Shown here: positions 39,669 through 50,728 of the stretch, in pieces
Layout: every line of letters starts with the position of its first letter
Numbering within the stretch: position 1 is the stretch's first letter
Source: Escherichia phage brachmannus
Length of the DNA stretch: 51,540 bases
Sequence record: ON711395.1
Direction: 5' to 3' (one strand)
Position numbers and translations under genes: made by a program
The notes under the pieces: model-generated
Databases searched by the model: none
Seen by the model: only the letters and a program-made list of their open reading frames with translations
Told to the model about the DNA's origin: nothing

Positions 39669-39893
39669 TCAAAACGGAAAACAGCGCGGACAACCAGGAT
39701 CGAAAACGCATCCACAATCATTAACAATCATAGTGGGATCTGCAAATATTGCGCTTGATTCAAGATCCATATCCATATCACCTAAAGCCTCATCAAGACT
39801 CTTAATTTTATATGCCACTTCAAGCGCCGCCTCTTTATTTAGTCCGGCATCTTCTGCCATTTGAAGGCGCTCAAAAAATCCGTCTTGACTCAT
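39669..39893 (-). CDS. hypothetical protein (Cys-rich C-terminus)
   Basis: 74 aa; CGC...CPRC pattern. Confidence 0.4.
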   Translation of the reverse strand: MSQDGFFERLQMAEDAGLNKEAALEVAYKIKSLDEALGDMDMDLESSAIFADPTMIVNDCGCVFDPGCPRCFPF

Positions 39894-40018
39894 CGCATAA
39901 TCCCCTTAATAACAGCCAAGATAATAGCCATGCCAGCAGCAGTAACCAAAAAACAAACCGCGCCAATAATCGAATAAAAAAAGAAATCAATAGCTTTATC
40001 TATCACTTTCCACCTCAT
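39890..40018 (-). CDS. small hydrophobic membrane protein (42 aa, not in ORF track)
   Basis: manual translation MRWKVIDKAIDFFFYSIIGAVCFLVTAAGMAIILAVIKGIMR; stop overlaps next gene start (ATGA); no clear RBS. Confidence 0.3.
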   Translation of the reverse strand: MRWKVIDKAIDFFFYSIIGAVCFLVTAAGMAIILAVIKGIMR

Positions 40019-40048
40019 TTAAAAGGCGGCAACACGCCGCCAGATTAA

Positions 40049-40276
40049 TTAAAGAGCGCGCCAGCTTTGAATATAGAAAGCGTTTTCTTCCAGTAATTCT
40101 TTTAACTGATCTTTATTGTATTTGCGCACCTTACCGCCTGGATGGATACCAATAAGATAGCCGCCTTTGCCCTCGGTGATAGTGATTTGGCTAATTCCAC
40201 AAGACTTATCAAGTTTTACAGCCACGCGGTGATGAGCGTCAATAGTTGACATAATGTTTAAAACTTTTGCTTTCAT
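40049..40276 (-). CDS. hypothetical protein
   Basis: 75-aa ORF followed by hairpin+T-run. Confidence 0.45.
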   Translation of the reverse strand: MKAKVLNIMSTIDAHHRVAVKLDKSCGISQITITEGKGGYLIGIHPGGKVRKYNKDQLKELLEENAFYIQSWRAL

Positions 40277-40384
40277 TTAAATATCCTCAATTGAAATATG
40301 AATGGCGTCGTGCTCTTTTTCCGTCGCCGACGTAATGGTAATTTGCAACCGCTACCATCCAGGCATTTTTGAAAATAAATAGCC

Positions 40385-40597
40385 TCATTTATTATTTTTC
40401 ATCTTAAATTTATGGCCTGGAACACCAGCACCAATATAGCCATCGTTGTATCCCATTAAATAAAGGCGAAGGCCATTATCTGAAATTACATGAGGATATT
40501 CTTTGAGATTTCCCATTAGCGGGTATTCTTTTCCGCGCGTAAATCTCCAAGTTGAGTCATAAGTTTCTACGCATTTAAGTTTTAATTGCTTTGCCAT
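40385..40597 (-). CDS. hypothetical protein
   Basis: 70 aa; TAATG overlap with upstream gene. Confidence 0.45.
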   Translation of the reverse strand: MAKQLKLKCVETYDSTWRFTRGKEYPLMGNLKEYPHVISDNGLRLYLMGYNDGYIGAGVPGHKFKMKNNK

Positions 40598-40794
40598 TAG
40601 ATGATCTCCATGTATGTTTCAAAGCCATTTAACTTGAACAGGTCGTTTTCACATTTGCGAACGTTCCAAGTTAGCCCTGAGTGGTACGCCTCCATATCAT
40701 CAAGGTCAATGGTGATTTCAGCACCTTTCTTAAACAAACCTTTTTCGTGAGACTTGTCGCGCTTAACAACTTTAACATCAACCTGATTTTCCAT
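40597..40794 (-). CDS. hypothetical protein
   Basis: 65 aa. Confidence 0.45.
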   Translation of the reverse strand: MENQVDVKVVKRDKSHEKGLFKKGAEITIDLDDMEAYHSGLTWNVRKCENDLFKLNGFETYMEII

Positions 40795-40848
40795 CTTTAA
40801 ATCCTCGTTTGTTGTCGATGCGCTTACTATACCAATCAGCAGCGCATC

Positions 40849-40868
40849 GTTTTTAACAAAAAGTGCTA
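40849..40868 (-). promoter_or_regulatory. conserved motif + 8-bp hairpin + TATAGT, minus strand
   Basis: minus strand TAGCACTTTTTGTTAAAAAC then CGATGCGC...GCGCATCG. Confidence 0.6.
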
Positions 40869-40869
40869 T

Positions 40870-41133
40870 TTAGTCCAGAAATTCGATTTCACGCTCTCCA
40901 GTTAACGGATCTACAAGCCAGAATCCGAGCGGTTCGCCGTGCATACCGCCATAGAATCCAAGCGCCGCCAGATCTTCACCTTTAACAAATACCAGGTTTC
41001 CGCTACGGCTTACGTGAGACACGTTAACGATAACCGGAAATGTGCGATCCTTAAATTCGGGCCGCAGGGCGTAACACCCGTTATTGAGCAAGCGTGCTTT
41101 GCGCTTAACTGGAATAGGTGCATTAATTTTCAT
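40870..41133 (-). CDS. hypothetical protein
   Basis: 87 aa; stop embedded in motif copy. Confidence 0.45.
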   Translation of the reverse strand: MKINAPIPVKRKARLLNNGCYALRPEFKDRTFPVIVNVSHVSRSGNLVFVKGEDLAALGFYGGMHGEPLGFWLVDPLTGEREIEFLD

Positions 41134-41359
41134 GGTTATTACTCCTTATCGTAAAGATTTAAAGACGTATAGTTTATTTCGGTAACTATATATCCGCATT
41201 GTTATTTCTCGCAGCGCAATATATTCCTTCCTGTTTTCCGGAAGACTGGCGAGCAACAACAGGCAGTATTTATAAGCGCGGTCAAGATTCCTTTCCGTGC
41301 CCCTGCAATATCCCTTGTTGCGCCTGGAGCGGTACAGCCATAACAATTTCTTGAACATT

Positions 41360-41569
41360 TCAGATACGCCCATACAGATCGCAAACTTCGTTGATAAAAC
41401 AGCGTTGAGACTCTTTATCCTGCTTCTCAAAAATTGCGCGGCATTCAAACTTAAGATTATGCACGATGACTACAACCATATTTTCAGGCATTGAGCGGTT
41501 ATAGCGTCGCGCGTCAGTGATTAAAACATCCATACCCATCTCATGTGCTTTCTTGATCACATCCAACAT
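41360..41569 (-). CDS. hypothetical protein
   Basis: ATG with GGAGAAG RBS; alternative overlapping ORF 41146-41448 judged less likely. Confidence 0.35.
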   Translation of the reverse strand: MLDVIKKAHEMGMDVLITDARRYNRSMPENMVVVIVHNLKFECRAIFEKQDKESQRCFINEVCDLYGRI

Positions 41570-41823
41570 TTTTTCTTCTCCTGCAATAAGCAAACATCAT
41601 TGATAAAATCAGCACGGCCCTTAATGTTGCTGATGTGGAACGTCTTTTCAGCGTACAGGCCATCACCTTCAATCACGATCATTACGCGAGTCGGTTTATT
41701 CACTGGCGCACACGAAAAGAGTGGTCGCGCCGGAAGAAATTTAGTGGTCACATCCAGGTTAGCCCTGGCGGCCCTGCAAAACGCCTCCGCCAGATCCAAA
41801 TCATTTTCGGTAATCACCGCCAT
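41557..41823 (-). CDS. hypothetical protein
   Basis: 88 aa. Confidence 0.45.
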   Translation of the reverse strand: MAVITENDLDLAEAFCRAARANLDVTTKFLPARPLFSCAPVNKPTRVMIVIEGDGLYAEKTFHISNIKGRADFINDVCLLQEKKKCWM

Positions 41824-42095
41824 TACTTTTTGATCTCCTTACTGATAAATTTCAGCACCTGGCGCAAGAAAACTTCGTTGTTGATAGTCGCTGGCAATTC
41901 TTCTTTCACTTCTTGCGGCAGATAGATATTGCCGTGCCAGGTCAAGCAATCGTAGTTGATACGATAAGAGCAAAGCCACTCGCAATCGTTATCTGCTTCC
42001 CAAATGCAGAGTTGCAGAACATCGCCAAAATCTTCAACAGTCAGATCCAGACCGTGACGCTTAGCGAAATTGAAAGTGGTTTTGCTGATGTTCAT
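41823..42095 (-). CDS. hypothetical protein (first gene of minus-strand early block)
   Basis: 90 aa downstream of motif-hairpin cassette. Confidence 0.45.
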   Translation of the reverse strand: MNISKTTFNFAKRHGLDLTVEDFGDVLQLCIWEADNDCEWLCSYRINYDCLTWHGNIYLPQEVKEELPATINNEVFLRQVLKFISKEIKK

Positions 42096-42154
42096 TTACT
42101 ATCTCCTGAGCGGTTCGTTTCGATGTGTGTAATGTACCCGATCAGGCGGCCTGA

Positions 42155-42173
42155 TTTTTAACAAAAAGTGCTA
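42155..42173 (-). promoter_or_regulatory. conserved motif + hairpin, minus strand, upstream of first minus-strand early gene
   Basis: minus strand TAGCACTTTTTGTTAAAAATCAGGCCGCCTGAT. Confidence 0.55.
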
Positions 42174-42713
42174 TTTGACGGTTAGCACCAGGATTGTGAT
42201 CGAAATAATCAAAAGTAATCATTCGTAATCAAATCACGTCAAAATGATGATTGCCTTTGCAAATTTGATGAGAAAAGTAATCACGTTTAATCATTGGTTG
42301 CAGGGGAGATAGTGAAACCTTCCCCTCTTGCCTCACTTTTCCGCCCGGCTGTCAGTGGTTGTTATGTTCCGTTCCCGCCTGTTCTTTTGTTGACCTTCCG
42401 CAAAATACGATAACAAAAAATAACAAACAGTACCTATATAATACATTGAAAAATAAGTATTATTTATTTATATGTATCTATATATTCTCTTTTGTTATCT
42501 TGGTTATTGTGGTATTTGGTGGGGTATATAGTTTTTGTGTATCTGTATGTGTGTATGGGTATGTAGGGGGCATATATATCTATATGGCACTTTCCGCGAG
42601 AAAACTTCGATAACAGGCAATGATAACATTGATTTATAAGGAAAAATAACGCCCATATTGTTATTGTGCCACCATATAAAATTGATAAAACACGCGGGAA
42701 CAAGAAAAAACAG

Positions 42714-42742
42714 TTGACACATTAAATAGCATTATTGATAAT
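42714..42742 (+). promoter_or_regulatory. sigma70-like promoter TTGACA-17-GATAAT upstream of plus-strand early array
   Basis: consensus -35 and good -10 about 30 nt upstream of AGGAGG RBS of 42772 gene. Confidence 0.6.
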
Positions 42743-42771
42743 GCCGACACCTAACAACCAGGAGGTAGAAA

Positions 42772-43236
42772 ATGAGCGAGCAATCATTCACTGACACGCT
42801 GCGCCGTGCAGCTATTATGCTGGCTAATGGCGAGGAAGAGACGATCAAGATTCCTGACGCGTATTTGCAGGTCCACATGTTCGGTAAGAAGTCGGCAAGC
42901 AATCCGGCGGCCTACATTCGCCAGATCATGAGTCGAGTGCCAGAAGTCGCCGAGCGGGGGCGCGTATCCGTTACCCGTGGCGTTTACGGGCCGGAAGATG
43001 AAAACTTCGGTAGCACTTTCTACGAGGTGCGGATTGTTGAAGGCCGTCGCAAGGTTTACAACAAAGAGGCACTGGAAAAGGCAGTGCGCCAGGCTAAGCG
43101 CAAGGTTGCAGAGGCGATCATTGATATGTCACCAAACCTGGCAAACTATGCGCCGGAAGAGTACGAAACATTATCAAAGGCCGTCGCTGACTTTCACGCG
43201 ATGATCAAAAAAACTTTCCTGGAGGATGAGCAATGA
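42772..43236 (+). CDS. hypothetical protein (first plus-strand early gene)
   Basis: 154 aa, AGGAGG RBS, downstream of TTGACA-17-GATAAT promoter. Confidence 0.55.
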   Translation: MSEQSFTDTLRRAAIMLANGEEETIKIPDAYLQVHMFGKKSASNPAAYIRQIMSRVPEVAERGRVSVTRGVYGPEDENFGSTFYEVRIVEGRRKVYNKEALEKAVRQAKRKVAEAIIDMSPNLANYAPEEYETLSKAVADFHAMIKKTFLEDEQ

Positions 43237-43505
43237 AAAAGGCATTAATCAGCGTTTTGGCGGCAATGGCATTCCTGACCGGATGCAAAGAAGATGGCGC
43301 GCATGTTGGCAATGTGCAGATGGCTAACCCTGGCGATGACTACAGCGTAAGGGAGCTATTCACCGCTGACGGTTGCACCGTTTACCGATTCTATGACGAT
43401 CGCACTGTTTACTTCACCAACTGTAAGGGCACGACTATCTGGGAAGTGTCGAAAAGCAATGGCAAAGGCACGAAGACAGAACATATGACCGTCGAGACAA
43501 AATAG
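43233..43505 (+). CDS. small lipoprotein
   Basis: signal peptide with lipobox LTGC. Confidence 0.5.
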   Translation: MKKALISVLAAMAFLTGCKEDGAHVGNVQMANPGDDYSVRELFTADGCTVYRFYDDRTVYFTNCKGTTIWEVSKSNGKGTKTEHMTVETK

Positions 43506-43521
43506 CACTTTTTGTTAAAAC
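43503..43521 (+). promoter_or_regulatory. conserved motif + hairpin GCCAGGC-GCAAA-GCCTGGC + ATAAT
   Basis: overlaps stop TAG of lipoprotein gene. Confidence 0.6.
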
Positions 43522-43577
43522 GCCAGGCGCAAAGCCTGGCATAATAGCCTCATCGAAACGAGATTGAGGAAACAAAA

Positions 43578-43763
43578 ATGGCACGTCGCATCACCAAAGA
43601 CCTTAAAGTCCTGAACAAAGAAAACGTAGTTAAAATCCTGGTTATCTGGGGCTACAACGAAGAAACAGCAAAGCAGAAGGTAGAGGCAGGTTATGACCTG
43701 GCTGTAAAAGCAATGCCAAACGATGACGCCAAAGGCATTGCAAACTATGTAGCGTTCTTTTAA
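43578..43763 (+). CDS. hypothetical protein
   Basis: 61 aa with RBS, after motif-hairpin cassette. Confidence 0.45.
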   Translation: MARRITKDLKVLNKENVVKILVIWGYNEETAKQKVEAGYDLAVKAMPNDDAKGIANYVAFF

Positions 43764-43778
43764 TTAGCAGGTGAATAG

Positions 43779-43964
43779 ATGAAAACGAAATTAGTCCATA
43801 AATCAGAAATCAAGATCGGCGATACTGTGATTCACAACGGCGAGCTTAGAACGGTTGGCAAGGAGTCAATAAGCCACGATGAATTTATGGGGATCTTGTT
43901 GTTCGGTGACTCTTATCGTCTTGGTTACAAGATGGTTGAGCTTGTGGAAGATGTCAAATTCTAA
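43779..43964 (+). CDS. hypothetical protein
   Basis: 61 aa. Confidence 0.45.
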   Translation: MKTKLVHKSEIKIGDTVIHNGELRTVGKESISHDEFMGILLFGDSYRLGYKMVELVEDVKF

Positions 43965-43965
43965 A

Positions 43966-43984
43966 TAGCACTTTTTGTTAAAAC
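43966..43984 (+). promoter_or_regulatory. conserved motif + CATAAT
   Basis: follows stop TAA; CATAAT 22 bp after TTGTTA. Confidence 0.55.
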
Positions 43985-44062
43985 TCTAAAACGATAACCA
44001 GGCATAATAAATCACATAGGGCGGCACGGCGTCGCCCACAAAACCAATCAGGAGAAAGCACC

Positions 44063-44323
44063 ATGTTAAAACTTGCTGACATTAAATTCCAGATCACCTT
44101 CGAATCTCGCGGCATTGGTCATTACATTTTTACCGATGAAAAAACATGCCATAAGGTTGATATGAATAGCGACAAACTAAGCCCATCAGACATGGAGATT
44201 GAACACTTCATTGATGCGCACAATACGCAGTACAACGCACTTAAAGACTATGGCTATGCAATGCCAGGATATACCAGCTTCCACTACAAGCCATATAAAG
44301 GCCAGGTGTTGCCAGTGCGCTAA
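44063..44323 (+). CDS. hypothetical protein
   Basis: 86 aa. Confidence 0.45.
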   Translation: MLKLADIKFQITFESRGIGHYIFTDEKTCHKVDMNSDKLSPSDMEIEHFIDAHNTQYNALKDYGYAMPGYTSFHYKPYKGQVLPVR

Positions 44324-44344
44324 CCGGAACGCGCAGAGATTCCG

Positions 44345-44956
44345 ATGGTCGAGATGAAAACATGCGACTACAAAAAGCTGTGGTGCTTAAGTGTGGACAA
44401 TATCAAGTATCCGATCACGTTCTACACGGTTGGTAATTCAACGATTCGATTCACATCGCGCGACAATGGCGTTTATAGCGATGGTACGAAATCAGAGTTG
44501 AAAGTTGATTTCTTTGTCAACGGTCACAATAGATACAATCCGCACAACGAAAAAGATAAAGTGTATTACGTGGAAGACATTACAAAACACTTGTTTGGAG
44601 AAACTCCATTCGGCGGCGGTAAGACGTCAATTCAAAAAATCATTGGCGATGAGATCCACAAAGCGGCTGCCGAAATGAAAGCGCCTGGAGGCTGGCGCAT
44701 TGACAAGAGCGCATTTGCAAATCAAGAAATCGTAACGCAGGGCGCAATTGAAGATATGCCAGTTGCAGCCACTCTAAAAGGAGTCCGGCTTGATGACGGC
44801 ACCTGGTATGAAGTAACGGCTACACCAAAGACGATCGAGATTCATGATGACGTTGTTATCCTTCTGCTTCACTACGGCGGCTATAAAAACCGGACGATTG
44901 CAGGTGAGACCAGCATTAAGCGCGGAACGATGGTTAAGTGGAAGGTGAAGATTTGA
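44345..44956 (+). CDS. hypothetical protein
   Basis: 203 aa. Confidence 0.5.
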   Translation: MVEMKTCDYKKLWCLSVDNIKYPITFYTVGNSTIRFTSRDNGVYSDGTKSELKVDFFVNGHNRYNPHNEKDKVYYVEDITKHLFGETPFGGGKTSIQKIIGDEIHKAAAEMKAPGGWRIDKSAFANQEIVTQGAIEDMPVAATLKGVRLDDGTWYEVTATPKTIEIHDDVVILLLHYGGYKNRTIAGETSIKRGTMVKWKVKI

Positions 44957-45032
44957 GTTTGCTCACTGCGGCGCACGTCGCCGCATGGATCGGATTGTTT
45001 TCCTACCTGTTTAGCTTTTATTTAGGTGAGAG

Positions 45033-45176
45033 ATGGCTACCTGGATTTTGCTGATTCTTATGATTGATGGCGGCGTTGACCATATCGAAATGAATAGCCA
45101 GCAATCTTGCATTGAGGCACGAGAGCAGATCAAGAACAACAACAGGTTTTATGCGTACACTCACACGCTATGTATT
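45033..45176 (+). CDS. small hydrophobic protein (47 aa, not in ORF track)
   Basis: manual translation MATWILLILMIDGGVDHIEM...; GGTGAGAG RBS-like upstream. Confidence 0.3.
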
Positions 45177-45180
45177 AAGA

Positions 45181-45199
45181 AATAGCACTTTTTGTTAAA
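45181..45199 (+). promoter_or_regulatory. conserved motif + hairpin with TATAAT in loop
   Basis: GGCCAGGTATAATGGCC. Confidence 0.6.
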
Positions 45200-45254
45200 A
45201 CTCAAATGTGGGGCCAGGTATAATGGCCTCACTTTCAACGAAGGAGATAAAACG

Positions 45255-45473
45255 ATGTACATTAAAAAGAAGATGAAATGCGTTTCCGTTAACTACGCTT
45301 GCTCTGGCATGTTCAAGCCTGGCGAAATCTATACGGCGCAAAAACTGAAATCATCAACCGGATCTTTTTACGTGAGCAATAGTAAGGGGCATCGCATGTT
45401 CCTGAACGGCGGCGAAGGCACTAAGGTTATGGCACACGCTATGGTAATGGCTGAATTTGAGGAGGTGAAATAA
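45255..45473 (+). CDS. hypothetical protein (paralog of next gene)
   Basis: ATG 45255 with AAGGAG RBS; shares LNGGEGT...AEFEEV pattern with 45473-45706. Confidence 0.5.
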   Translation: MYIKKKMKCVSVNYACSGMFKPGEIYTAQKLKSSTGSFYVSNSKGHRMFLNGGEGTKVMAHAMVMAEFEEVK

Positions 45474-45706
45474 TGATCATTGAAAACAACTTTCTTTGCG
45501 TTAAGAGCAATAGACCATTCTTCACGCCTGGCAAGGTGTACCAGGGCAAGAAGGACACAAGAGATGGTCACTCTTATCATGTTCACTGCAACAACGGATA
45601 CAAGTTTTACCTTAACGGCGAGAATGGAACTGAGATCGTTGCGTTTGAAAACGTAGTTGCAGAGTTCGAGCAGGTTACAGACGCGGAATTTGAGGAAGTG
45701 CAATAA
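45473..45706 (+). CDS. hypothetical protein (paralog of previous gene)
   Basis: 77 aa; tandem duplicate. Confidence 0.5.
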   Translation: MIIENNFLCVKSNRPFFTPGKVYQGKKDTRDGHSYHVHCNNGYKFYLNGENGTEIVAFENVVAEFEQVTDAEFEEVQ

Positions 45707-45888
45707 TGGATGATTTTACTCGGCTTGTTCTCGGCTGGATTGTGTTTCTTTTTGCGTGGCTTATCCACTGTGCGAGGCATAAATTCAGACTGAGCTATGA
45801 TAATTCATTCGTTATGACCTGCTTCAGTATTCCAGGATGGATCATTTTGCTTGTGGCTACTGCTGAATACATCCATAAAACATTTTAA
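45706..45888 (+). CDS. small membrane protein
   Basis: 60 aa with two hydrophobic segments. Confidence 0.4.
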   Translation: MDDFTRLVLGWIVFLFAWLIHCARHKFRLSYDNSFVMTCFSIPGWIILLVATAEYIHKTF

Positions 45889-45898
45889 GGATTAATAT

Positions 45899-46441
45899 AT
45901 GAAAAAATACACTTTCGAACTATGGGGCAAGAAATACGAATTAATGACCAGCAAGCCTATTGTTATCGTTGATCTGGATGGCACGCTATCTGACGGATCG
46001 CATCGTTTGCACTTGCTGCCAACCGAAAACTTGCACCTTACGGAATCGTGGAGCGAATTTAACAGGGCAGCCGCCGGAGATTCACCGATTAAGAGCACGA
46101 TTGCTGTTATCAATGGTTTGTGGGTATCTGGCTTTGCCGTCGTTATTCTTACCGGACGCAGTGACGAGGTTCGCTATGAAACCTGCAAATGGTTGAATGA
46201 GAACGGCGTGAAGTTTGACGAAATCATCATGCGCCGCCAGGAGGACAACCGAAAGGATACGGTTATTAAAGAAGAAGCCTTGCGCGCTATTGGCCTGGAC
46301 AACATTGTTTGCGCCTTTGACGATTCTCCGAACGTGGTTAAGCACTTCCGCAGCTTGGGGATAACAACCTATCAGGTCACGGAATACGACAAGCCTCACG
46401 CTCACCTGCAATCTCACGGCGTGGAGGAGTTGCAGAAATGA
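45899..46441 (+). CDS. HAD-superfamily phosphatase (PNK 3-prime-phosphatase-like)
   Basis: motif I VIVDLDGTLSD; small HAD fold size. Confidence 0.55.
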   Translation: MKKYTFELWGKKYELMTSKPIVIVDLDGTLSDGSHRLHLLPTENLHLTESWSEFNRAAAGDSPIKSTIAVINGLWVSGFAVVILTGRSDEVRYETCKWLNENGVKFDEIIMRRQEDNRKDTVIKEEALRAIGLDNIVCAFDDSPNVVKHFRSLGITTYQVTEYDKPHAHLQSHGVEELQK

Positions 46442-46647
46442 TCCTGAATGTAGCATATGCTAACCCTCGCGGCTGCAATATATACGGCTTTAAGGTTGGC
46501 GCGACGGTCAACGCCAGGATAAACGAAAAAGGCGTATTAGTTGTCAAGTCACCTAAAACTGGCATTGATATGCGCATCAAGGAGAACGGCGGAAGATTGT
46601 TTATCAGGTCAATGTCTGGTCAAACGCTCGCAACTTTCACCAAATAG
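46438..46647 (+). CDS. hypothetical protein
   Basis: 69 aa, stop TAG within motif variant. Confidence 0.45.
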   Translation: MILNVAYANPRGCNIYGFKVGATVNARINEKGVLVVKSPKTGIDMRIKENGGRLFIRSMSGQTLATFTK

Positions 46648-46663
46648 CACGAATTGCAAAAAC
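46645..46663 (+). promoter_or_regulatory. conserved motif variant TAGCACGAATTGCAAAAAC
   Basis: overlaps stop TAG of 46438 gene. Confidence 0.5.
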
Positions 46664-46718
46664 AGATCATCGGGCTTGCTGTATGGTAAGCACATCAACA
46701 ACAAACGAGGATTAAATC

Positions 46719-46982
46719 ATGGCTAACAAGATCGAATTTTTTAAAGCGGTAGACATTATTGATGGTGCGCCTAGCTTCTTTGCGATCCATTCTATTGACG
46801 GCAAGGATATTGGGTACAACGTTATCAGTCGAGATGGAATATCAAAACTTAGTGACCTGGTAGGCCATATTGTGTCAATCGGGAAATGCGCATGGCCCGA
46901 TTCGCCACGAGAGCCGCTCCGCAGCGACATGATTAATCCTGAATTGCTTTACACGCTGGTAGTAGAGGGAGAAAATAAATGA
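46719..46982 (+). CDS. hypothetical protein
   Basis: 87 aa. Confidence 0.45.
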   Translation: MANKIEFFKAVDIIDGAPSFFAIHSIDGKDIGYNVISRDGISKLSDLVGHIVSIGKCAWPDSPREPLRSDMINPELLYTLVVEGENK

Positions 46983-47164
46983 TTTGGTTACTTGCTTTTT
47001 TGGTTGTTTTTCTTTACATTTCAGGCTTGTTTACGTTCCGCGCGTTGGTGAAATATTCTGACGCGACAGACAAAGACGATAAAATCGTTCTCGCTTTCTG
47101 GTTTGTTTGGGTGTGGTTAGCAATTTACGAGAACATCAGAGACAAACAGAAATTTGAGTGGTGA
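46979..47164 (+). CDS. small membrane protein
   Basis: 61 aa hydrophobic. Confidence 0.4.
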   Translation: MIWLLAFLVVFLYISGLFTFRALVKYSDATDKDDKIVLAFWFVWVWLAIYENIRDKQKFEW

Positions 47165-47220
47165 TTCTTGCTATGGCGCATTCATGCAGTGCGCCATGTT
47201 GAGAAAACATAAAGGGGGAA

Positions 47221-47364
47221 ATGATGCGTAACTTTGAAAAAATCATTACCAAAAAGAAGCGTCGCGGGTACGATGAGCATGTGGAGTTTGTGAACAAGCA
47301 GCGCAAGAAGCGCCATAGACGCGAAATGCTGCATAATATCAACTCACGCTATGGAGGAAACTAA
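47221..47364 (+). CDS. small highly basic protein (47 aa, not in ORF track)
   Basis: AAGGGGGAA RBS then ATGATG; translation MMRNFEKIITKKKRRGYDEH...; stop abuts next start. Confidence 0.4.
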   Translation: MMRNFEKIITKKKRRGYDEHVEFVNKQRKKRHRREMLHNINSRYGGN

Positions 47365-47556
47365 ATGCAATTGCCACCATTTAACGAAAAAAGCGAAGAG
47401 ATTGCCAAAACTGCATGTCACCTTCGAGAGCTTGCCGACATGATAGATCGCGGTCAGGTTATGATTGTCAATATGGCGATTAAAAGCGAGAATAGAAATT
47501 TCAAGGTTTTAAGCGAGACAACAGAAATTACTGTGTTGAAAGCAAGGGGAGAATAA
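47365..47556 (+). CDS. hypothetical protein
   Basis: 63 aa. Confidence 0.45.
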   Translation: MQLPPFNEKSEEIAKTACHLRELADMIDRGQVMIVNMAIKSENRNFKVLSETTEITVLKARGE

Positions 47557-47558
47557 TC

Positions 47559-48149
47559 ATGAAACGAGACATTATTATCCTTAATGGGCCGCCTGGCTGT
47601 GGAAAGGACACTATTGCAGCTTACCTAACGGGCCATCGTTACCCAGCGGTTAAGGCGTCATTCAAACAGCCGATGTTCGATATTGCGTTTTCCATGCTGG
47701 GCGTGTACCTATACGATGAATTTATGGACCTGTACAACGACCGAGAACAAAAAGAAAAGCCTCAAGTTATTTTGGGCGGCAAGTCACCTCGACAATTCAT
47801 GATCTGGATTAGCGAGGATGTAATGAAGCCAGTTTTTGGAGATCACTATTTCGGGCGTCGAATGGTTGAAGAGATTCACGAGATGTACCGAGATTTGGCG
47901 GTTGTGATCAGTGATGGCGGATTCCCCGAAGAAATCAAGCCGCTGGTTAAGGCAGGGCATGAAGTGCATATTTGCCGATTGCATCGCGACGGCTTCACGT
48001 TTGCTGGCGATTCGAGAGACTATATTGACCTGAGCGGTTATCACTATCGAATCCATCACTATGACTTCCACTTGCAGGACGGCAAGCCGGAACTGGCTGT
48101 AAACGAGATCGTCAATGCTGTCAAATGGAAGCACACAAAGATTAAATAG
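47559..48149 (+). CDS. P-loop nucleotide kinase (dNMP kinase-like)
   Basis: Walker A NGPPGCGKDT close to dNMP kinase G-x-GKDT signature. Confidence 0.5.
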   Translation: MKRDIIILNGPPGCGKDTIAAYLTGHRYPAVKASFKQPMFDIAFSMLGVYLYDEFMDLYNDREQKEKPQVILGGKSPRQFMIWISEDVMKPVFGDHYFGRRMVEEIHEMYRDLAVVISDGGFPEEIKPLVKAGHEVHICRLHRDGFTFAGDSRDYIDLSGYHYRIHHYDFHLQDGKPELAVNEIVNAVKWKHTKIK

Positions 48150-48165
48150 CACGAATTGCTAAACG
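48147..48165 (+). promoter_or_regulatory. conserved motif variant TAGCACGAATTGCTAAACG + TATAAT at 22 bp
   Basis: overlaps stop TAG of kinase gene. Confidence 0.55.
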
Positions 48166-48219
48166 CGGGGCGCAATGCCTCGCTATAATGCAAACACCAA
48201 TCAACGAGAGGAAATCACA

Positions 48220-48600
48220 ATGGTTAACATCAGAAAAATCCGCGTCGGCACTAAATTCTTAGTTACTTACGCAATTCCAGATAGCGGAATGAAGAAGGGC
48301 CAGATTGTTAAGGTTGATAGCAAAAGATTTGGAATCCCTGGTATCAATGGCTATCTAATCAATAAAGATCTTGGATTCGGCGGATTCGCTATCCGTTCGC
48401 TTGAGGGTATTGTTGCCACCCTTAAACGAATCACAAATCATCGAGGCTGCCCAATCAAGACTATTAAAGCGCCAACCAATCACGGCAAACTGGATAATCG
48501 TCGAATCCGCCGCCTGGCGCGTAACGCGTTAAAATTCCGTGGCGTAGGCGATGATTTCTACTATGGATACAAGAGGATTGCGCGCAATGCTGGGAAATAA
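48220..48600 (+). CDS. hypothetical protein
   Basis: ATG 48220 with GAGAGGAAA leader (track start 48175 alternative). Confidence 0.45.
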   Translation: MVNIRKIRVGTKFLVTYAIPDSGMKKGQIVKVDSKRFGIPGINGYLINKDLGFGGFAIRSLEGIVATLKRITNHRGCPIKTIKAPTNHGKLDNRRIRRLARNALKFRGVGDDFYYGYKRIARNAGK

Positions 48601-48699
48601 CAATAACGCAACGAATCCTAAGCCACCTTTTGATTTTCATTCCGCAATGATTGCGGTATTATCAATGCTACTTTTTCTTTATAGCATGAGGGCGCTACT

Positions 48700-48948
48700 A
48701 TGGTTTTTAACGCATTGAAACGACTGTTTAAGCCGGAATACCGGATCGTATTTTGCCGCGACTGTTCTACTTATCATGTGCAGCGACGCAGCTTAGGCGG
48801 CAATTGGCACTATGTTACAGATGACTTTTTCGGCATCATTGCCACTGAATTTAAGTGTTATAGCGATGCTTATATGTACGTCAAGAAGCGCCACCGCTTA
48901 CGCAAGTGTCGTTTTTCCGCACTGATTCACTTTAATGATTGTTACTGA
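48700..48948 (+). CDS. hypothetical Cys-containing protein
   Basis: 82 aa; CRDC...C pattern. Confidence 0.4.
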   Translation: MVFNALKRLFKPEYRIVFCRDCSTYHVQRRSLGGNWHYVTDDFFGIIATEFKCYSDAYMYVKKRHRLRKCRFSALIHFNDCY

Positions 48949-48955
48949 GGTGAAA

Positions 48956-49138
48956 ATGAAAACTGGTGTTATTATTCTTTTTCTGATCCTTTTAGGCAGC
49001 CATTTAACCATTAACTATGAGGGCATTATGGCCTTTTGGGGCAACTTGATGATGTTTGCTGCTGGTTCAATTGCTGGCTACTCTGACGGGAAAAATGATG
49101 GTGTGCGCAAGATGCTGATGGGGCTTAAACAAAAATAA
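48956..49138 (+). CDS. small membrane protein
   Basis: ATG 48956 with GAGGTG RBS; two hydrophobic helices. Confidence 0.4.
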   Translation: MKTGVIILFLILLGSHLTINYEGIMAFWGNLMMFAAGSIAGYSDGKNDGVRKMLMGLKQK

Positions 49139-49149
49139 GGGGATATGAA

Positions 49150-49440
49150 ATGGCAAACAAAACTTACCGCAAACTACTGGTTAACGCTTTTGAAAACATC
49201 GCGCAGTGTAACAAGTGGAACGACTCTAAACACTCGCCAATCACAATGAAGCGCGCCGGATTCAAAAATACTCGTTCATGGGCGCGAGCTTTCGCAGCTT
49301 GCTATATGCCGGATGGCGGACTAGGGGTGATGAACGATTTTTTGATCAACATGATAGAGGAAGCTGCGCGAGAGGATCGACCGCTGACACAGCGAGATTT
49401 TGACGACTTCGCGCGCGATGAGCTTTACTATCTGAGCTAA
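49150..49440 (+). CDS. hypothetical protein
   Basis: 96 aa; stop followed by TAG of motif copy. Confidence 0.45.
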   Translation: MANKTYRKLLVNAFENIAQCNKWNDSKHSPITMKRAGFKNTRSWARAFAACYMPDGGLGVMNDFLINMIEEAAREDRPLTQRDFDDFARDELYYLS

Positions 49441-49459
49441 TAGCACTTTTTGTTAAAAC
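49441..49459 (+). promoter_or_regulatory. conserved motif + hairpin AAGGGCA...TGCCCTT
   Basis: after TAATAG. Confidence 0.55.
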
Positions 49460-49515
49460 TTCCGCAAGGGCATTTGGTAAAGTGCCCTTATTGAAGCGAA
49501 ACAGAGGAAAGCGCA

Positions 49516-49728
49516 ATGAAAATTAAAATCACCAAAATCGACACCATCAACGGAGACGGATCAATCACTCTTGAGCAATGCGGTTTGGTTGTTGGTGATG
49601 TGCTGGAAGTTGACGGTCATTTCAGCTACGGATCTTATTGTGTTATTGCGCCGCGTAACAGCGAGTTTATCAAGGCTGGCGACAATATTAGTGTTAACCA
49701 TGACGAATGCGAGGTAGTAGAAGAATGA
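49516..49728 (+). CDS. hypothetical protein
   Basis: 70 aa. Confidence 0.45.
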   Translation: MKIKITKIDTINGDGSITLEQCGLVVGDVLEVDGHFSYGSYCVIAPRNSEFIKAGDNISVNHDECEVVEE

Positions 49729-49988
49729 TCACGATTAACCTGTCAGAGCAGCAAGCGCGCATTATGTTGTCGGCCTTCGGTTGGCGAGACAATGACGGTT
49801 TACAGGCCACAGTTAAAATTTATGAGCCAGTGGCGCGTGAAGTTTTCAGCCAGCTAGAACACGCATTTGATCCTGCTGGGACTGAGCAAGCGGAAACTGC
49901 CGCATGGTTCGGAGAGAACGGATACAGAGATCAGCAAGTCGAAAACTGGAAGCGCATAAACGAGACTATGGAGGAATCAGGTTTATGA
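49725..49988 (+). CDS. hypothetical protein
   Basis: ATGA overlap with previous gene. Confidence 0.4.
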   Translation: MITINLSEQQARIMLSAFGWRDNDGLQATVKIYEPVAREVFSQLEHAFDPAGTEQAETAAWFGENGYRDQQVENWKRINETMEESGL

Positions 49989-50299
49989 TTTACATTCACT
50001 ACTACCAAATCGGAACTAACGAGAACAAAAAAGAGCATCGTTTCATCCACGATGATTTGGACAAGGCAAAGGCCCAGCAACAGGTTTTAGGCGGCGTCAT
50101 TCAGGCTTTTGAGCCTGTAGAGGATATTGAGTACCGCGAGCATTTAAAAGATGTTGTTATTGATGAGATCTCTTGCTTGATTGATGATATGACAAATCAC
50201 GGCCCTGGTTCCCCGTGGGAAGACGCAGGATCTGTAACGTGGGACAAGGCCAAAGTTAAGACGCTAAACAACTTTCGAGAGATTCTCGACGGTTTTTAA
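49985..50299 (+). CDS. hypothetical protein
   Basis: ATGA overlap with previous gene. Confidence 0.4.
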   Translation: MIYIHYYQIGTNENKKEHRFIHDDLDKAKAQQQVLGGVIQAFEPVEDIEYREHLKDVVIDEISCLIDDMTNHGPGSPWEDAGSVTWDKAKVKTLNNFREILDGF

Positions 50300-50497
50300 T
50301 TAAAAACGCATAGCCGTTAGAGCGCCTCAATCGCATTCTAACGAGCTATTTTTCTGGTAAGGTGATTTAATGGATGAGTACAAACAACCTTCGCAGTGGT
50401 GCAAAGAGAAGCAAGAAGAGGCACTGGAGCGCGGAGATGTGGAAGAAGCTATGAACTATTTCAAACTTGCGGAAGAATGGAAGGGGAGAGGATACTG

Positions 50498-50728
50498 ATG
50501 TTCGGCATGAATGAGGCGCAATTCAACGCAGCTAAACGCCAGGCTAAAAAGTGCGGCGAGGCGATGAAAGCGGATGTGGAAAAGCGCGGGAAGTATGTTG
50601 ATGAAGTAATGAAGGGCATCATTGCAGAACACTACCAGCCAATCGCGCCAATGTTGACGATCACTCAATTCATTTGGCTATGTGGTTACTTGCGTGGACG
50701 TTGGGGGAACGCTTTCGACAGGGAATGA
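50498..50728 (+). CDS. hypothetical protein
   Basis: ATG 50498 after GGGGAGAGG RBS; alternative small ORF 50370-50498 upstream. Confidence 0.35.
   Translation: MFGMNEAQFNAAKRQAKKCGEAMKADVEKRGKYVDEVMKGIIAEHYQPIAPMLTITQFIWLCGYLRGRWGNAFDRE

What the first reader, a model, noticed from the sequence alone, without database searches (positions are those of the whole stretch)
39890..50498. Unannotated small ORFs below the 60-aa track cutoff
Manual translation finds candidates the track omits: a 42-aa hydrophobic peptide (39890-40018, minus strand, stop overlapping the next start), a 47-aa hydrophobic peptide (45033-45176), a 47-aa highly basic protein with strong AAGGGGGAA RBS (47221-47364) and a 42-aa acidic peptide (50370-50498) whose stop overlaps the next ATG. 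Small early phage proteins are often host-takeover or anti-defence factors.
Basis: seen in the sequence. Interest (0 to 1): 0.4.

Follow-up and report, generated by a model that had tools for sequence, protein, structure and literature searches.

The report
Four small conserved phage genes
The four short reading frames are real, conserved protein-coding genes of a T1-like coliphage that related GenBank genomes already list as hypothetical proteins, so this is an ordinary result of a 60-aa display cutoff, not a discovery.

Summary
The window is a near-complete Warwickvirus genome (Drexlerviridae, T1-like coliphage). All four ORFs exist, with three corrections:
- ORF2 ends at 45185, so it is 50 aa, not 47. 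It is predicted to be a soluble beta-beta-alpha-beta mini-protein, not a hydrophobic peptide.
- ORF1 most likely starts at GTG 40006 (38 aa).
- ORF3 most likely starts at the second ATG, 47224 (46 aa).

In 8 to 38 related loci each frame stays open, while every other frame has stops in at least some orthologues. Start codon, ribosome-binding site and stop are conserved. Median dN/dS is 0.51 (ORF1), 0.08 (ORF2), 0.32 (ORF3) and 0.20 (ORF4).

GenBank relatives annotate all four as hypothetical proteins.

Family assignments:
- ORF4 is a homologue of T7 gp1.8 (same PHROG, phrog_1312).
- ORF3 resembles T7 gp1.1. It passes the Pfam PF08200 threshold, but the signal rests on the N-terminal MRNFEK motif.
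- ORF2 belongs to phrog_5579, shared with phage T1 and T4-like Krischvirus.
- ORF1 is a lineage-restricted single-pass membrane peptide in a variable slot behind a terminator-like hairpin.

No experimentally established function is known for any of these families. A host-takeover or anti-defence role remains untested. Interest is low.

The parts
39890..40006 (-). ORF1: 38-aa single-pass membrane peptide (MIDKAIDFFFYSIIGAVCFLVTAAGMAIILAVIKGIMR, GTG start). The stop overlaps the start of the downstream 74-aa gene (ATGA).
   Evidence: Searches give the sequence; the upstream ATG frame has a stop in L001/L002, and codon 5 is ATG there; 8 orthologues of 36-38 aa, median dN/dS 0.51. Kyte-Doolittle 19-aa maximum 2.56, and this is the only frame open in all orthologues; a membrane peptide occupies the same slot in three clades; only one related cluster among 1.84 billion representative proteins.
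40025..40041 (-). Terminator-like GC hairpin (GGCGGCGTGTTGCCGCC followed by TTTT) directly upstream of ORF1. It is also conserved in relatives that lack the ORF.
   Evidence: scan; the hairpin is kept in gaps of 49-173 nt across relatives.
45033..45185 (+). ORF2: 50-aa soluble beta-beta-alpha-beta mini-protein with two Cys (C26, C47) that are invariant in the curated 12-sequence alignment. Ribosome-binding site AGGTGAGAG. Member of phrog_5579.
   Evidence: phrog_5579, E 9.8e-23; 20 loci including phage T1, dN/dS 0.08; homologues in T4-like Krischvirus. AlphaFold pLDDT 90.4.
47224..47364 (+). ORF3: 46-aa highly basic protein resembling T7 gp1.1 (MRNFEK...). The stop TAA abuts the ATG of the next gene.
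   Evidence: Pfam PF08200 at 22.7 bits against a threshold of 21, and 10 of 12 family members hit; the MRNFEK start is conserved in 19 loci, dN/dS 0.32. T7 gp1.1 sequence..
50370..50498 (+). ORF4: 42-aa acidic helical hairpin, homologue of T7 gp1.8 (phrog_1312). Ribosome-binding site AAGGTGA. The stop overlaps the next ATG (TGATG).
   Evidence: phrog_1312, E 1.5e-17; 38 loci, dN/dS 0.20; 722 phage records. T7 gp1.8 and the ORF at the gene-1.8 position in phage N30; pLDDT 87.9, helices 7-21 and 24-39.
42714..42742 (+). Best sigma-70-like promoter match (TTGACA-17-GATAAT, 11 of 12) at the head of the rightward gene array that contains ORF2-4. Its role as their promoter is inferred, not shown.

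Best explanation
The four ORFs are genuine, independently translated small protein genes. They sit in the two divergently oriented accessory gene arrays of a Warwickvirus (T1-like) coliphage.

Shown: each has its own Shine-Dalgarno sequence. ORF1, ORF3 and ORF4 are packed against the next gene (ATGA, TAAATG, TGATG). Each belongs to a conserved protein family under purifying selection.

Inferred: the host RNA polymerase transcribes them as parts of polycistronic mRNAs, from promoters in the 42.1-42.8 kb divergent region.

Inferred, low confidence: they act as stoichiometric binders of host or phage macromolecules, not as enzymes.
- ORF1 is a single-pass inner-membrane peptide that modulates a membrane protein or the membrane itself. 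It is carried as an optional cassette behind a hairpin.
- ORF2 is a compact cytoplasmic beta-beta-alpha-beta protein-binding module whose two conserved Cys are functionally important.
- ORF3 is a nucleic-acid- or ribosome-binding basic protein working like T7 gp1.1, with the invariant N-terminal MRNFEK as its key motif.
- ORF4 is a TPR-like helical hairpin working like T7 gp1.8.

The stated confidence applies to 'real conserved genes of these families'. Each specific mode of action is no better than about 0.3.
For: Identity of the genome: 95-97% nucleotide identity to Warwickvirus phages.

Coding evidence:
- The frames are open in 8, 20, 20 and 38 sequences respectively, counting the window (7, 19, 19 and 37 related loci). 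Start codon, ribosome-binding site and stop context are conserved.
- Median dN/dS is 0.51, 0.08, 0.32 and 0.20.
- All five alternative frames contain stops.
- Variation by codon position follows 3>1>2.
- The genes are annotated as CDS in relatives.

Family evidence:
- ORF4, T7 gp1.8 and the ORF at the gene-1.8 position in phage N30 all fall in phrog_1312. BLASTP gives 46% identity at 9e-13 to N30 and 35% at 1e-7 to T7 gp1.8. tblastn with ORF4 alone reaches T7-like phages at 6e-5 to 5e-4 in the whole phage database.
- ORF3 passes the Pfam PF08200 gathering score, and 10 of 12 relatives hit it. Relatives hit T7 gp1.1's phrog_2490 over full length at about 1e-3. ORF3 and gp1.1 match in size, charge (15 K+R, 5 D+E in both) and N-terminus.
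- ORF2 hits phrog_5579, and paralogue pairs lie between nrdA and nrdB in Krischvirus.

Structure evidence: confident AlphaFold models for ORF2 (pLDDT 90) and ORF4 (pLDDT 88). ORF1's hydrophobic core scores 2.56 on the Kyte-Doolittle scale.
Against: There is no expression or functional data for any of the four in a T1-like phage. I found none in the literature searches.

ORF1 is only weakly constrained. Median dN/dS is 0.51 and some close pairs exceed 1 on very few substitutions. It is restricted to a few clades and absent from most T1-like phages.

The ORF3-gp1.1 link disappears when the first six residues are removed (hhalign E 0.12). tblastn does not connect the two groups.

T7 gp1.1 and gp1.8 themselves have no established function (PMC7064336, PMC9825161, T7 RefSeq notes).
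Confidence: 0.9

Rival explanations
1. Chance ORFs in non-coding spacers. On this view the intervals are regulatory intergenic regions (hairpins, promoters) that happen to be open.
For: GC-rich hairpins lie just upstream of ORF1, ORF2 and ORF3. A promoter-like site follows ORF2 (45195-45224). A 38-50 codon frame has a non-trivial chance of being open in a single genome.
Against: Only the proposed frame is open in all orthologues, across lineages down to about 35-45% amino-acid identity. dN/dS is 0.08-0.5. Ribosome-binding sites and start codons are conserved. ORF2 and ORF4 have homologues in unrelated genome contexts in T4-like and T7-like phages. The AlphaFold models are confident.
Confidence: 0.03
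2. ORF1 alone is a young or proto-gene, or a by-product. A T-rich insert behind a terminator hairpin happens to encode a hydrophobic stretch, and the peptide has little or no function.
For: The slot is variable. The gap is 1-9 nt in T1-type phages, a hairpin of about 50-60 nt in others, and a hairpin plus ORF in only three clades. dN/dS is 0.5 or more. There is no PHROG or Pfam family, and only one related cluster among 1.84 billion representatives. T-rich DNA readily encodes membrane-like peptides (general knowledge).
Against: Three diverged versions, at about 45% identity or less, all keep an open frame of 36-40 aa, a ribosome-binding site, a membrane core flanked by charged ends, and an overlap with the downstream start. 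The second codon position is the least variable. The antisense and shifted frames have stops.
Confidence: 0.12
3. The ORFs work mainly as coupling or leader ORFs. Their translation delivers ribosomes to the overlapping downstream gene, and the peptide products are unimportant.
For: ORF1, ORF3 and ORF4 end in ATGA, TAAATG and TGATG junctions with the next gene. T7 gene 1.1 likewise abuts gene 1.2.
Against: The amino-acid sequences are under purifying selection. The families persist with different downstream genes: gp2 in T7-like phages for the ORF4 family, and gp1.2 against an unrelated 63-aa protein for the ORF3 family. ORF2 is not coupled to anything. Tight packing is the norm throughout this genome.
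Confidence: 0.05
4. One reading: one or more of the four are dedicated anti-defence or host-shutoff effectors.
Against: There is no sequence or profile match to any characterised effector. The structural similarity is non-specific. ORF2 and ORF4 are broadly and stably conserved (dN/dS 0.08 and 0.20), which fits a conserved host or phage target better than an arms-race protein.
Confidence: 0.25

Closest known systems
Annotated hypothetical proteins of Warwickvirus phages (for example MikeNSara CDS0054/0075/0083/0093 and FritzSarasin bas04_0051/0068/0076/0087)
   Same: Same genes at the same positions. Amino-acid identity is 70-100% (81-88% for ORF1, 98-100% for ORF2, 70-72% for ORF3, 100% for ORF4), with the same start and stop contexts.
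   Different: In the window, ORF1 starts with GTG where relatives have ATG, and it carries an upstream in-frame ATG. The C-terminal third of ORF3 differs (46 aa against 49-50 aa). Some GenBank records omit ORF2 or ORF3.
Bacteriophage T7 gp1.8 (48 aa, non-essential, function unknown); phrog_1312; Pfam PF26839 as precomputed for homologues
   Same: Same PHROG. Shared motif S[EQ]WC...Y..LW..RG[QYL]. Acidic pI (4.6 against 4.8). About 40-48 aa.
   Different: T7 gp1.8 has a 14-aa N-terminal extension and lacks 7 residues of the hairpin turn (ERGD...). In T7-like phages it lies between nucleotide kinase gp1.7 and RNA polymerase inhibitor gp2. Here its neighbours are unrelated proteins of unknown function.
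Bacteriophage T7 gp1.1 (42 aa, basic, function unknown); Pfam PF08200 Phage_1_1; phrog_2490
   Same: Invariant N-terminal MRNFEK. Both have 15 K+R and 5 D+E, with pI about 11. Sizes are 42-53 aa. Both have an aromatic-Gly/Glu C-terminal tail (RYGGN against SWEGQ; the AKRMDWD-type tail in T1-like relatives against the SKRAAWE-type in T7-like phages). The stop abuts the next gene.
   Different: No detectable similarity once MRNFEK is removed. There is no phage RNA polymerase gene, phage promoter or RNase III site upstream. The downstream gene is unrelated to gp1.2. The window protein scores only 14.5 bits against phrog_2490.
Krischvirus (RB49-like, T4-like) small ORFs between nrdA and nrdB (for example kaaroe_211 and kaaroe_212, VOG8694); phrog_5579
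   Same: Same PHROG. Same length class (50-57 aa). W4, L6, C26, A29 and C47 are invariant in the curated alignment, and the C-terminus is CVKK-like. A polynucleotide kinase gene lies nearby in both phage groups.
   Different: About 30-36% identity. There is a 4-residue insertion in the first hairpin. The Krischvirus genes occur as tandem paralogues inside a ribonucleotide reductase operon, whereas the window has a single copy among genes of unknown function.

Membership tests
Pfam PF08200 Phage_1_1 (T7 gp1.1) | HMM score at or above the curated gathering threshold | tested here: met
   22.7-22.8 bits against a cutoff of 21, E 1.3e-4. 10 of 12 T1-like family members match at E<=0.01.
Pfam PF08200 Phage_1_1 (T7 gp1.1) | Similarity extending beyond the N-terminal MRNFEK motif (full-length homology) | tested here: inconclusive
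   hhalign of the T1-like profile against the T7-like profile gives probability 95%, E 2.5e-8 with the motif, but E 0.12 without the first six residues. Some relatives align over full length to phrog_2490 at about 1e-3. Composition, length and the C-terminal aromatic-Gly/Glu tail agree.
Pfam PF08200 Phage_1_1 (T7 gp1.1) | Genomic position: after the phage RNA polymerase gene and directly before gene 1.2 (dGTPase inhibitor) | tested here: not met
   The downstream 63-aa protein has no similarity to gp1.2, and its own family is phrog_16293 of unknown function. T1-like phages encode no RNA polymerase (established knowledge). Only the tight stop-start junction is shared.
T7 gp1.8 family (phrog_1312) | Significant profile match to the same family as T7 gp1.8 | tested here: met
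   ORF4 E 1.5e-17. T7 gp1.8 E 6.3e-15 and the N30 gene-1.8-position ORF E 1.1e-20. Pairwise BLASTP 9e-13 and 1e-7.
T7 gp1.8 family (phrog_1312) | Conserved residues W10, C11, Y30, W37 and R40, and a two-helix hairpin | tested here: met
   Invariant columns in alignments that include T7 gp1.8. AlphaFold gives helices 7-21 and 24-39 at pLDDT 87.9. The fold of T7 gp1.8 itself was not modelled.
T7 gp1.8 family (phrog_1312) | Position between nucleotide kinase (gp1.7) and RNA polymerase inhibitor (gp2) | tested here: not met
   The window neighbours are phrog_11192 and phrog_303, both of unknown function. The downstream protein has no similarity to gp2. Synteny is not required for homology.
phrog_5579 (ORF2 family: T1-like phages plus Krischvirus) | Full-length profile match and the conserved Cys pair | tested here: met
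   E 9.8e-23 over residues 1-50 of a 52-position profile. The Krischvirus member scores 1.2e-24. C26 and C47 are invariant in the curated 12-sequence alignment and at least 90% conserved in the 40-sequence alignment.
Small single-pass membrane peptide (descriptive class for ORF1, not a homology family) | One hydrophobic segment of at least 19 aa above the Kyte-Doolittle 1.6 threshold, flanked by charged residues | tested here: met
   Maximum 19-aa window is 2.56. The core F8-I33 is flanked by MIDKAID and KGIMR. The feature is kept in diverged relatives at 2.5-2.9. Membrane insertion itself cannot be tested here.
Known defence-associated or named bacterial protein families (PADLOC, NCBIfam) | Any profile match | tested here: not met
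   No PADLOC match. Only a meaningless 12-bit NCBIfam hit for ORF3.

The most novel reading that the evidence does not exclude
T1-like, T7-like and T4-like virulent coliphages may draw on a common pool of proteins of about 40-55 aa: gp1.1-like, gp1.8-like and the two-Cys beta-beta-alpha-beta family. These would hit the same conserved Enterobacterial targets. On this reading the invariant N-terminal MRNFEK of the gp1.1-like proteins would be a functional targeting motif. The two-Cys protein recurs next to nucleotide-metabolism and RNA-repair genes (nrdA/nrdB, polynucleotide kinase), so it would be a regulator or redox partner of that machinery. If so, these T1-like genes would give a second, independent genetic handle on the long-unknown functions of T7 gp1.1 and gp1.8.
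Probability: 0.15. Interest if true: 0.5.

Novelty: already known. Interest (0 to 1): 0.2.

Why it matters
The practical value is for the scan. A 60-aa ORF track misses a substantial share of real genes in this phage type: at least six in this 12-kb stretch. Such gaps should be expected to hold conserved small genes.

Biologically, the only modest gain is a set of cross-family links. ORF4 is a gp1.8 homologue. ORF3 is gp1.1-like. ORF2 is shared with T1 and Krischvirus. These links suggest complementation experiments between model phages for proteins whose functions have stayed unknown since the T7 genome was sequenced.

Nothing here changes current understanding.

Tried and rejected
- ORF2 as a membrane or signal-anchored peptide, and my recollection of a link to the enterobacterial DUF1482/YebW family: rejected or unsupported. 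There was no Pfam hit even at E<=10. Hydropathy is below the membrane threshold. AlphaFold puts the N-terminus in a beta-strand of a soluble fold.
- PDB sequence searches found only sub-threshold TPR/Sel1-like hits for ORF4 and nothing for ORF3.
- The gene downstream of ORF3 as a gp1.2 analogue, and the gene downstream of ORF4 as a gp2 analogue: no similarity.
- Rfam scan of 38-51.5 kb: nothing relevant.
- Single-sequence homology search for ORF2 found only close relatives. phmmer of ORF1 against 1.84 billion representatives found one real cluster.
- Anchoring on T7 gp1.2 to collect gp1.1 sequences returned only 2 loci. A nucleotide pattern for MRNFEK worked instead.
- Pfam PF26839 is precomputed for ORF4 homologues but is absent from the local Pfam copy, so I could not read its name. 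The 'DUF3012' label that one source gives some homologues is not supported (8 bits).
- Literature searches for expression or function data on T1-like small genes found nothing usable.

Full report
**What the window is.** The 39.5-51.5 kb stretch is 95-97% identical to Escherichia phages NorthRox, MikeNSara, tonijn, tunus and FritzSarasin (Bas04). These belong to Drexlerviridae, Tempevirinae, Warwickvirus, and are T1-like siphoviruses of about 51 kb. The finding lies in two divergent arrays of mostly tiny genes on either side of 42.1-42.8 kb. The best sigma-70-like promoter match in the region (TTGACA-17-GATAAT, 42714-42742) heads the rightward array. Named neighbours are a Dcm-like methyltransferase, a polynucleotide kinase and a dNMP kinase. 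Everything else is of unknown function.

**Checking the observation.** All four ORFs exist, with corrections.
- ORF1 (39890-40018, minus strand, 42 aa) ends in an ATGA overlap with the next gene. In MikeNSara and FritzSarasin the third codon of this long form is a stop and codon 5 is ATG. Annotators and a metagenomic gene caller give 38 aa. AGGTGG lies inside codons 2-3. The real start is therefore GTG 40006.
- ORF2 starts at 45033 but stops at 45183-45185, giving 50 aa.
- ORF3 (47221-47364) has two adjacent ATGs. The conserved protein start in all relatives is the second one (MRNFEK), which lies 5 nt from the GGGGG ribosome-binding site.
- ORF4 (50370-50498) is as described, with an AAGGTGA ribosome-binding site and a TGATG junction.

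**Are they more than chance?** I fetched 80 IMG/VR loci around the polynucleotide kinase gene, which adds to the two GenBank loci, and located orthologues by tblastn.
- The frames are intact in 7 related loci for ORF1, 19 for ORF2 (including phage T1 itself), 19 for ORF3 and 37 for ORF4. Two isolated nonsense variants were excluded. Amino-acid identity goes down to about 35-45%. Start codon, ribosome-binding site and stop context are conserved.
- Median pairwise dN/dS is 0.51 (ORF1), 0.08 (ORF2), 0.32 (ORF3) and 0.20 (ORF4).
- Across the orthologous segments the proposed frame has zero stops, while each of the other five frames has 4-77 in total.
- Variation by codon position follows 3>1>2.
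- Rfam finds no RNA family there.

These are genes. ORF1 is the least certain.

**They are already annotated.** MikeNSara CDS0054, 0075, 0083 and 0093 and FritzSarasin bas04_0051, 0068, 0076 and 0087 are these four genes, each labelled 'hypothetical protein'. Some other GenBank records leave ORF2 or ORF3 unannotated. The list is also incomplete. A 33-aa ORF at 40287-40388 (minus strand, 15 loci) and a membrane peptide of about 43 aa at 48587-48718 (20 loci) are equally conserved.

**ORF4 is a T7 gp1.8 homologue.**
- tblastn finds the protein in 722 phage records. These include T7-like Autographiviridae of Escherichia, Klebsiella, Yersinia and Pectobacterium, where it lies next to 'nucleotide kinase'.
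- In T7-like phage N30 the hit is an unannotated ORF between gp1.7 and gp2, which is the gene 1.8 position. It is 46% identical to ORF4 (E 9e-13).
- T7 gp1.8 itself aligns at 35% identity (E 1e-7), with the shared motif SxWC...Y..LW..RG.
- ORF4, the N30 ORF and T7 gp1.8 all fall in phrog_1312.
- AlphaFold with 66 homologues predicts a two-helix hairpin at pLDDT 88.
- Sequence and fold searches give only sub-threshold TPR/Sel1-like matches.
- T7 gp1.8 is annotated as non-essential with no known function. A genome-reduction study nevertheless failed to remove it in MG1655 (PMC9825161).

**ORF3 resembles T7 gp1.1.**
- It passes the Pfam PF08200 (Phage_1_1) gathering score (22.7 against 21 bits), as do 10 of 12 T1-like relatives.
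- ORF3 and T7 gp1.1 share MRNFEK at the N-terminus, encoded with synonymous differences. Both have 15 K+R and 5 D+E and a pI of about 11. Both have an aromatic-Gly/Glu tail, and in both the stop abuts the next gene.
- Relatives hit gp1.1's phrog_2490 over full length at about 1e-3.
- A profile-profile comparison of 11 T1-like and 13 T7-like sequences is significant with the motif (probability 95%, E 2.5e-8). It is not significant without the first six residues (E 0.12). tblastn does not bridge the two groups.
- I rate common ancestry at about 0.6-0.7 and call the protein 'gp1.1-like'.
- The function of gp1.1 is unknown. One paper remarks that Ocr plus gp1.1 shut off host protein synthesis (PMC7064336).

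**ORF2 is a soluble two-Cys mini-protein.**
- It matches phrog_5579 (E 1e-22).
- Homologues occur in T1 and other Drexlerviridae. Two tandem paralogues also lie between nrdA and nrdB, next to the polynucleotide kinase gene, in T4-like Krischvirus.
- A profile search found 41 clusters, all from phage-sized contigs of about 50 kb or about 165 kb, with no names or Pfam domains.
- W4, L6, C26, A29 and C47 are invariant in the curated alignment.
- AlphaFold with 40 sequences gives a confident beta-beta-alpha-beta fold at pLDDT 90. The 'hydrophobic' N-terminus is the first core strand, and hydropathy is below the membrane threshold.

**ORF1 is an optional membrane peptide.**
- The 38-aa product has a 26-residue hydrophobic core flanked by charged ends (Kyte-Doolittle 2.56).
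- It has no PHROG or Pfam family. Only one related cluster was found among 1.84 billion representative proteins.
- I compared the junction between the flanking 75-aa and 74-aa genes across 37 loci, and it forms a series. The gap is 1-9 nt in T1-type phages. It is a GC hairpin of about 50-60 nt in others. It is 155-173 nt, containing the hairpin plus a 36-40 aa membrane-peptide ORF with its own ribosome-binding site and an overlap onto the downstream start, in Warwickvirus and two further clades.
- Those three versions are at most about 45% identical yet keep the same architecture. That argues for a functional accessory peptide, but selection is weak.

**How they most likely work.**
- Shown: the four are separate cistrons, each with its own ribosome-binding site, inside densely packed arrays. 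Three have stop-start junctions with the next gene. All are under purifying selection.
- Inferred: they are transcribed by the host polymerase from the divergent promoter region.
- Inferred, low confidence: none can be an enzyme at this size, so they most likely act by binding. ORF1 would bind in the inner membrane. ORF2 and ORF4 would act as compact protein-binding modules. ORF3 would be a polycationic nucleic-acid or ribosome binder with a functionally critical N-terminus.

The strong conservation of ORF2 and ORF4 across unrelated virulent phage groups fits a conserved host or phage target better than a rapidly evolving counter-defence role. The latter cannot be excluded.

**Verdict.** This is a correct but unremarkable catch. 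The genes are real, the details need the corrections above, all four are already annotated in relatives, and three fall in existing protein families (ORF1 matches no PHROG or Pfam family). No function is known for any of them. Novelty: already known. Interest: 0.2.

Noticed in passing
window 44063-44956 (stop at 44321-44323): In this phage an in-frame TAA splits a 296-297 aa gene that is conserved in relatives (phrog_7116; MikeNSara CDS0074, bas04_0067). The stop comes from a C-to-A change at 44322; the eight relatives with a comparable alignment all read TCA (Ser). The result is an 86-aa ORF plus a 203-aa ORF. This could be a nonsense mutation, a sequencing error or a tolerated truncation.
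   Followed up: partly
It is present in 15 related loci with a nearly invariant AVANDHYGGDGKRAxRHSYFN core, and is annotated in relatives (MikeNSara CDS0056). The window copy carries D-to-Y and G-to-V changes inside that core.
   Followed up: partly
window about 48587-48718 (+), inside ORF 48551-48718: Another small conserved gene below the cutoff: a peptide of about 43 aa with an NNNATNPKPPFDFH motif followed by a transmembrane segment. It is found in 20 related loci and annotated in relatives (MikeNSara CDS0087, bas04_0080).
   Followed up: partly
window 39894-40048, and the homologous junction in L001-L077: The junction between the 75-aa and 74-aa genes is a variable slot. It is nearly absent in T1-type phages (1-9 nt), holds only a hairpin in others (about 50-60 nt), and holds a hairpin plus a small membrane-peptide ORF in three clades (155-173 nt). 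L011, L012 and L014 carry a very different 40-aa peptide (MMNGVEKVIEILVAVFIFLGCLLVGGMVFMVFDEIWRTLL).
   Followed up: yes
window 44968-44984 and 47173-47197 (+): Perfect GC-rich inverted repeats lie in the short spacers just upstream of ORF2 (GCGGCG-cacgt-CGCCGC) and ORF3 (ATGGCGCA-ttcatgcag-TGCGCCAT), without a clear T-run. They may be attenuators, RNA-processing sites or mRNA-stabilising elements. Their conservation was not analysed.
   Followed up: no
window 42229-42336 (-) and 42333-42446 (-): Two ORFs of 35 and 37 aa that some relatives annotate (MikeNSara CDS0067 and CDS0068). They are found only in the closest relatives and sit in the AT-rich divergent promoter region. Their coding status is doubtful.
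   Followed up: partly
GenBank records such as MG065671 (Campylobacter phage A120) and MG065657 (Campylobacter phage C4): About 20 records labelled 'Campylobacter phage' with Campylobacter jejuni given as host match this T1-like coliphage region at the nucleotide and protein level. This suggests that they are Drexlerviridae coliphage-type genomes with a questionable host label.
   Followed up: no
L084 (Escherichia phage N30, NC_048078) 1498-1614: The RefSeq record of T7-like phage N30 leaves the gene 1.8 homologue between gp1.7 and gp2 unannotated. This is the same small-gene blind spot in a curated record.
   Followed up: yes
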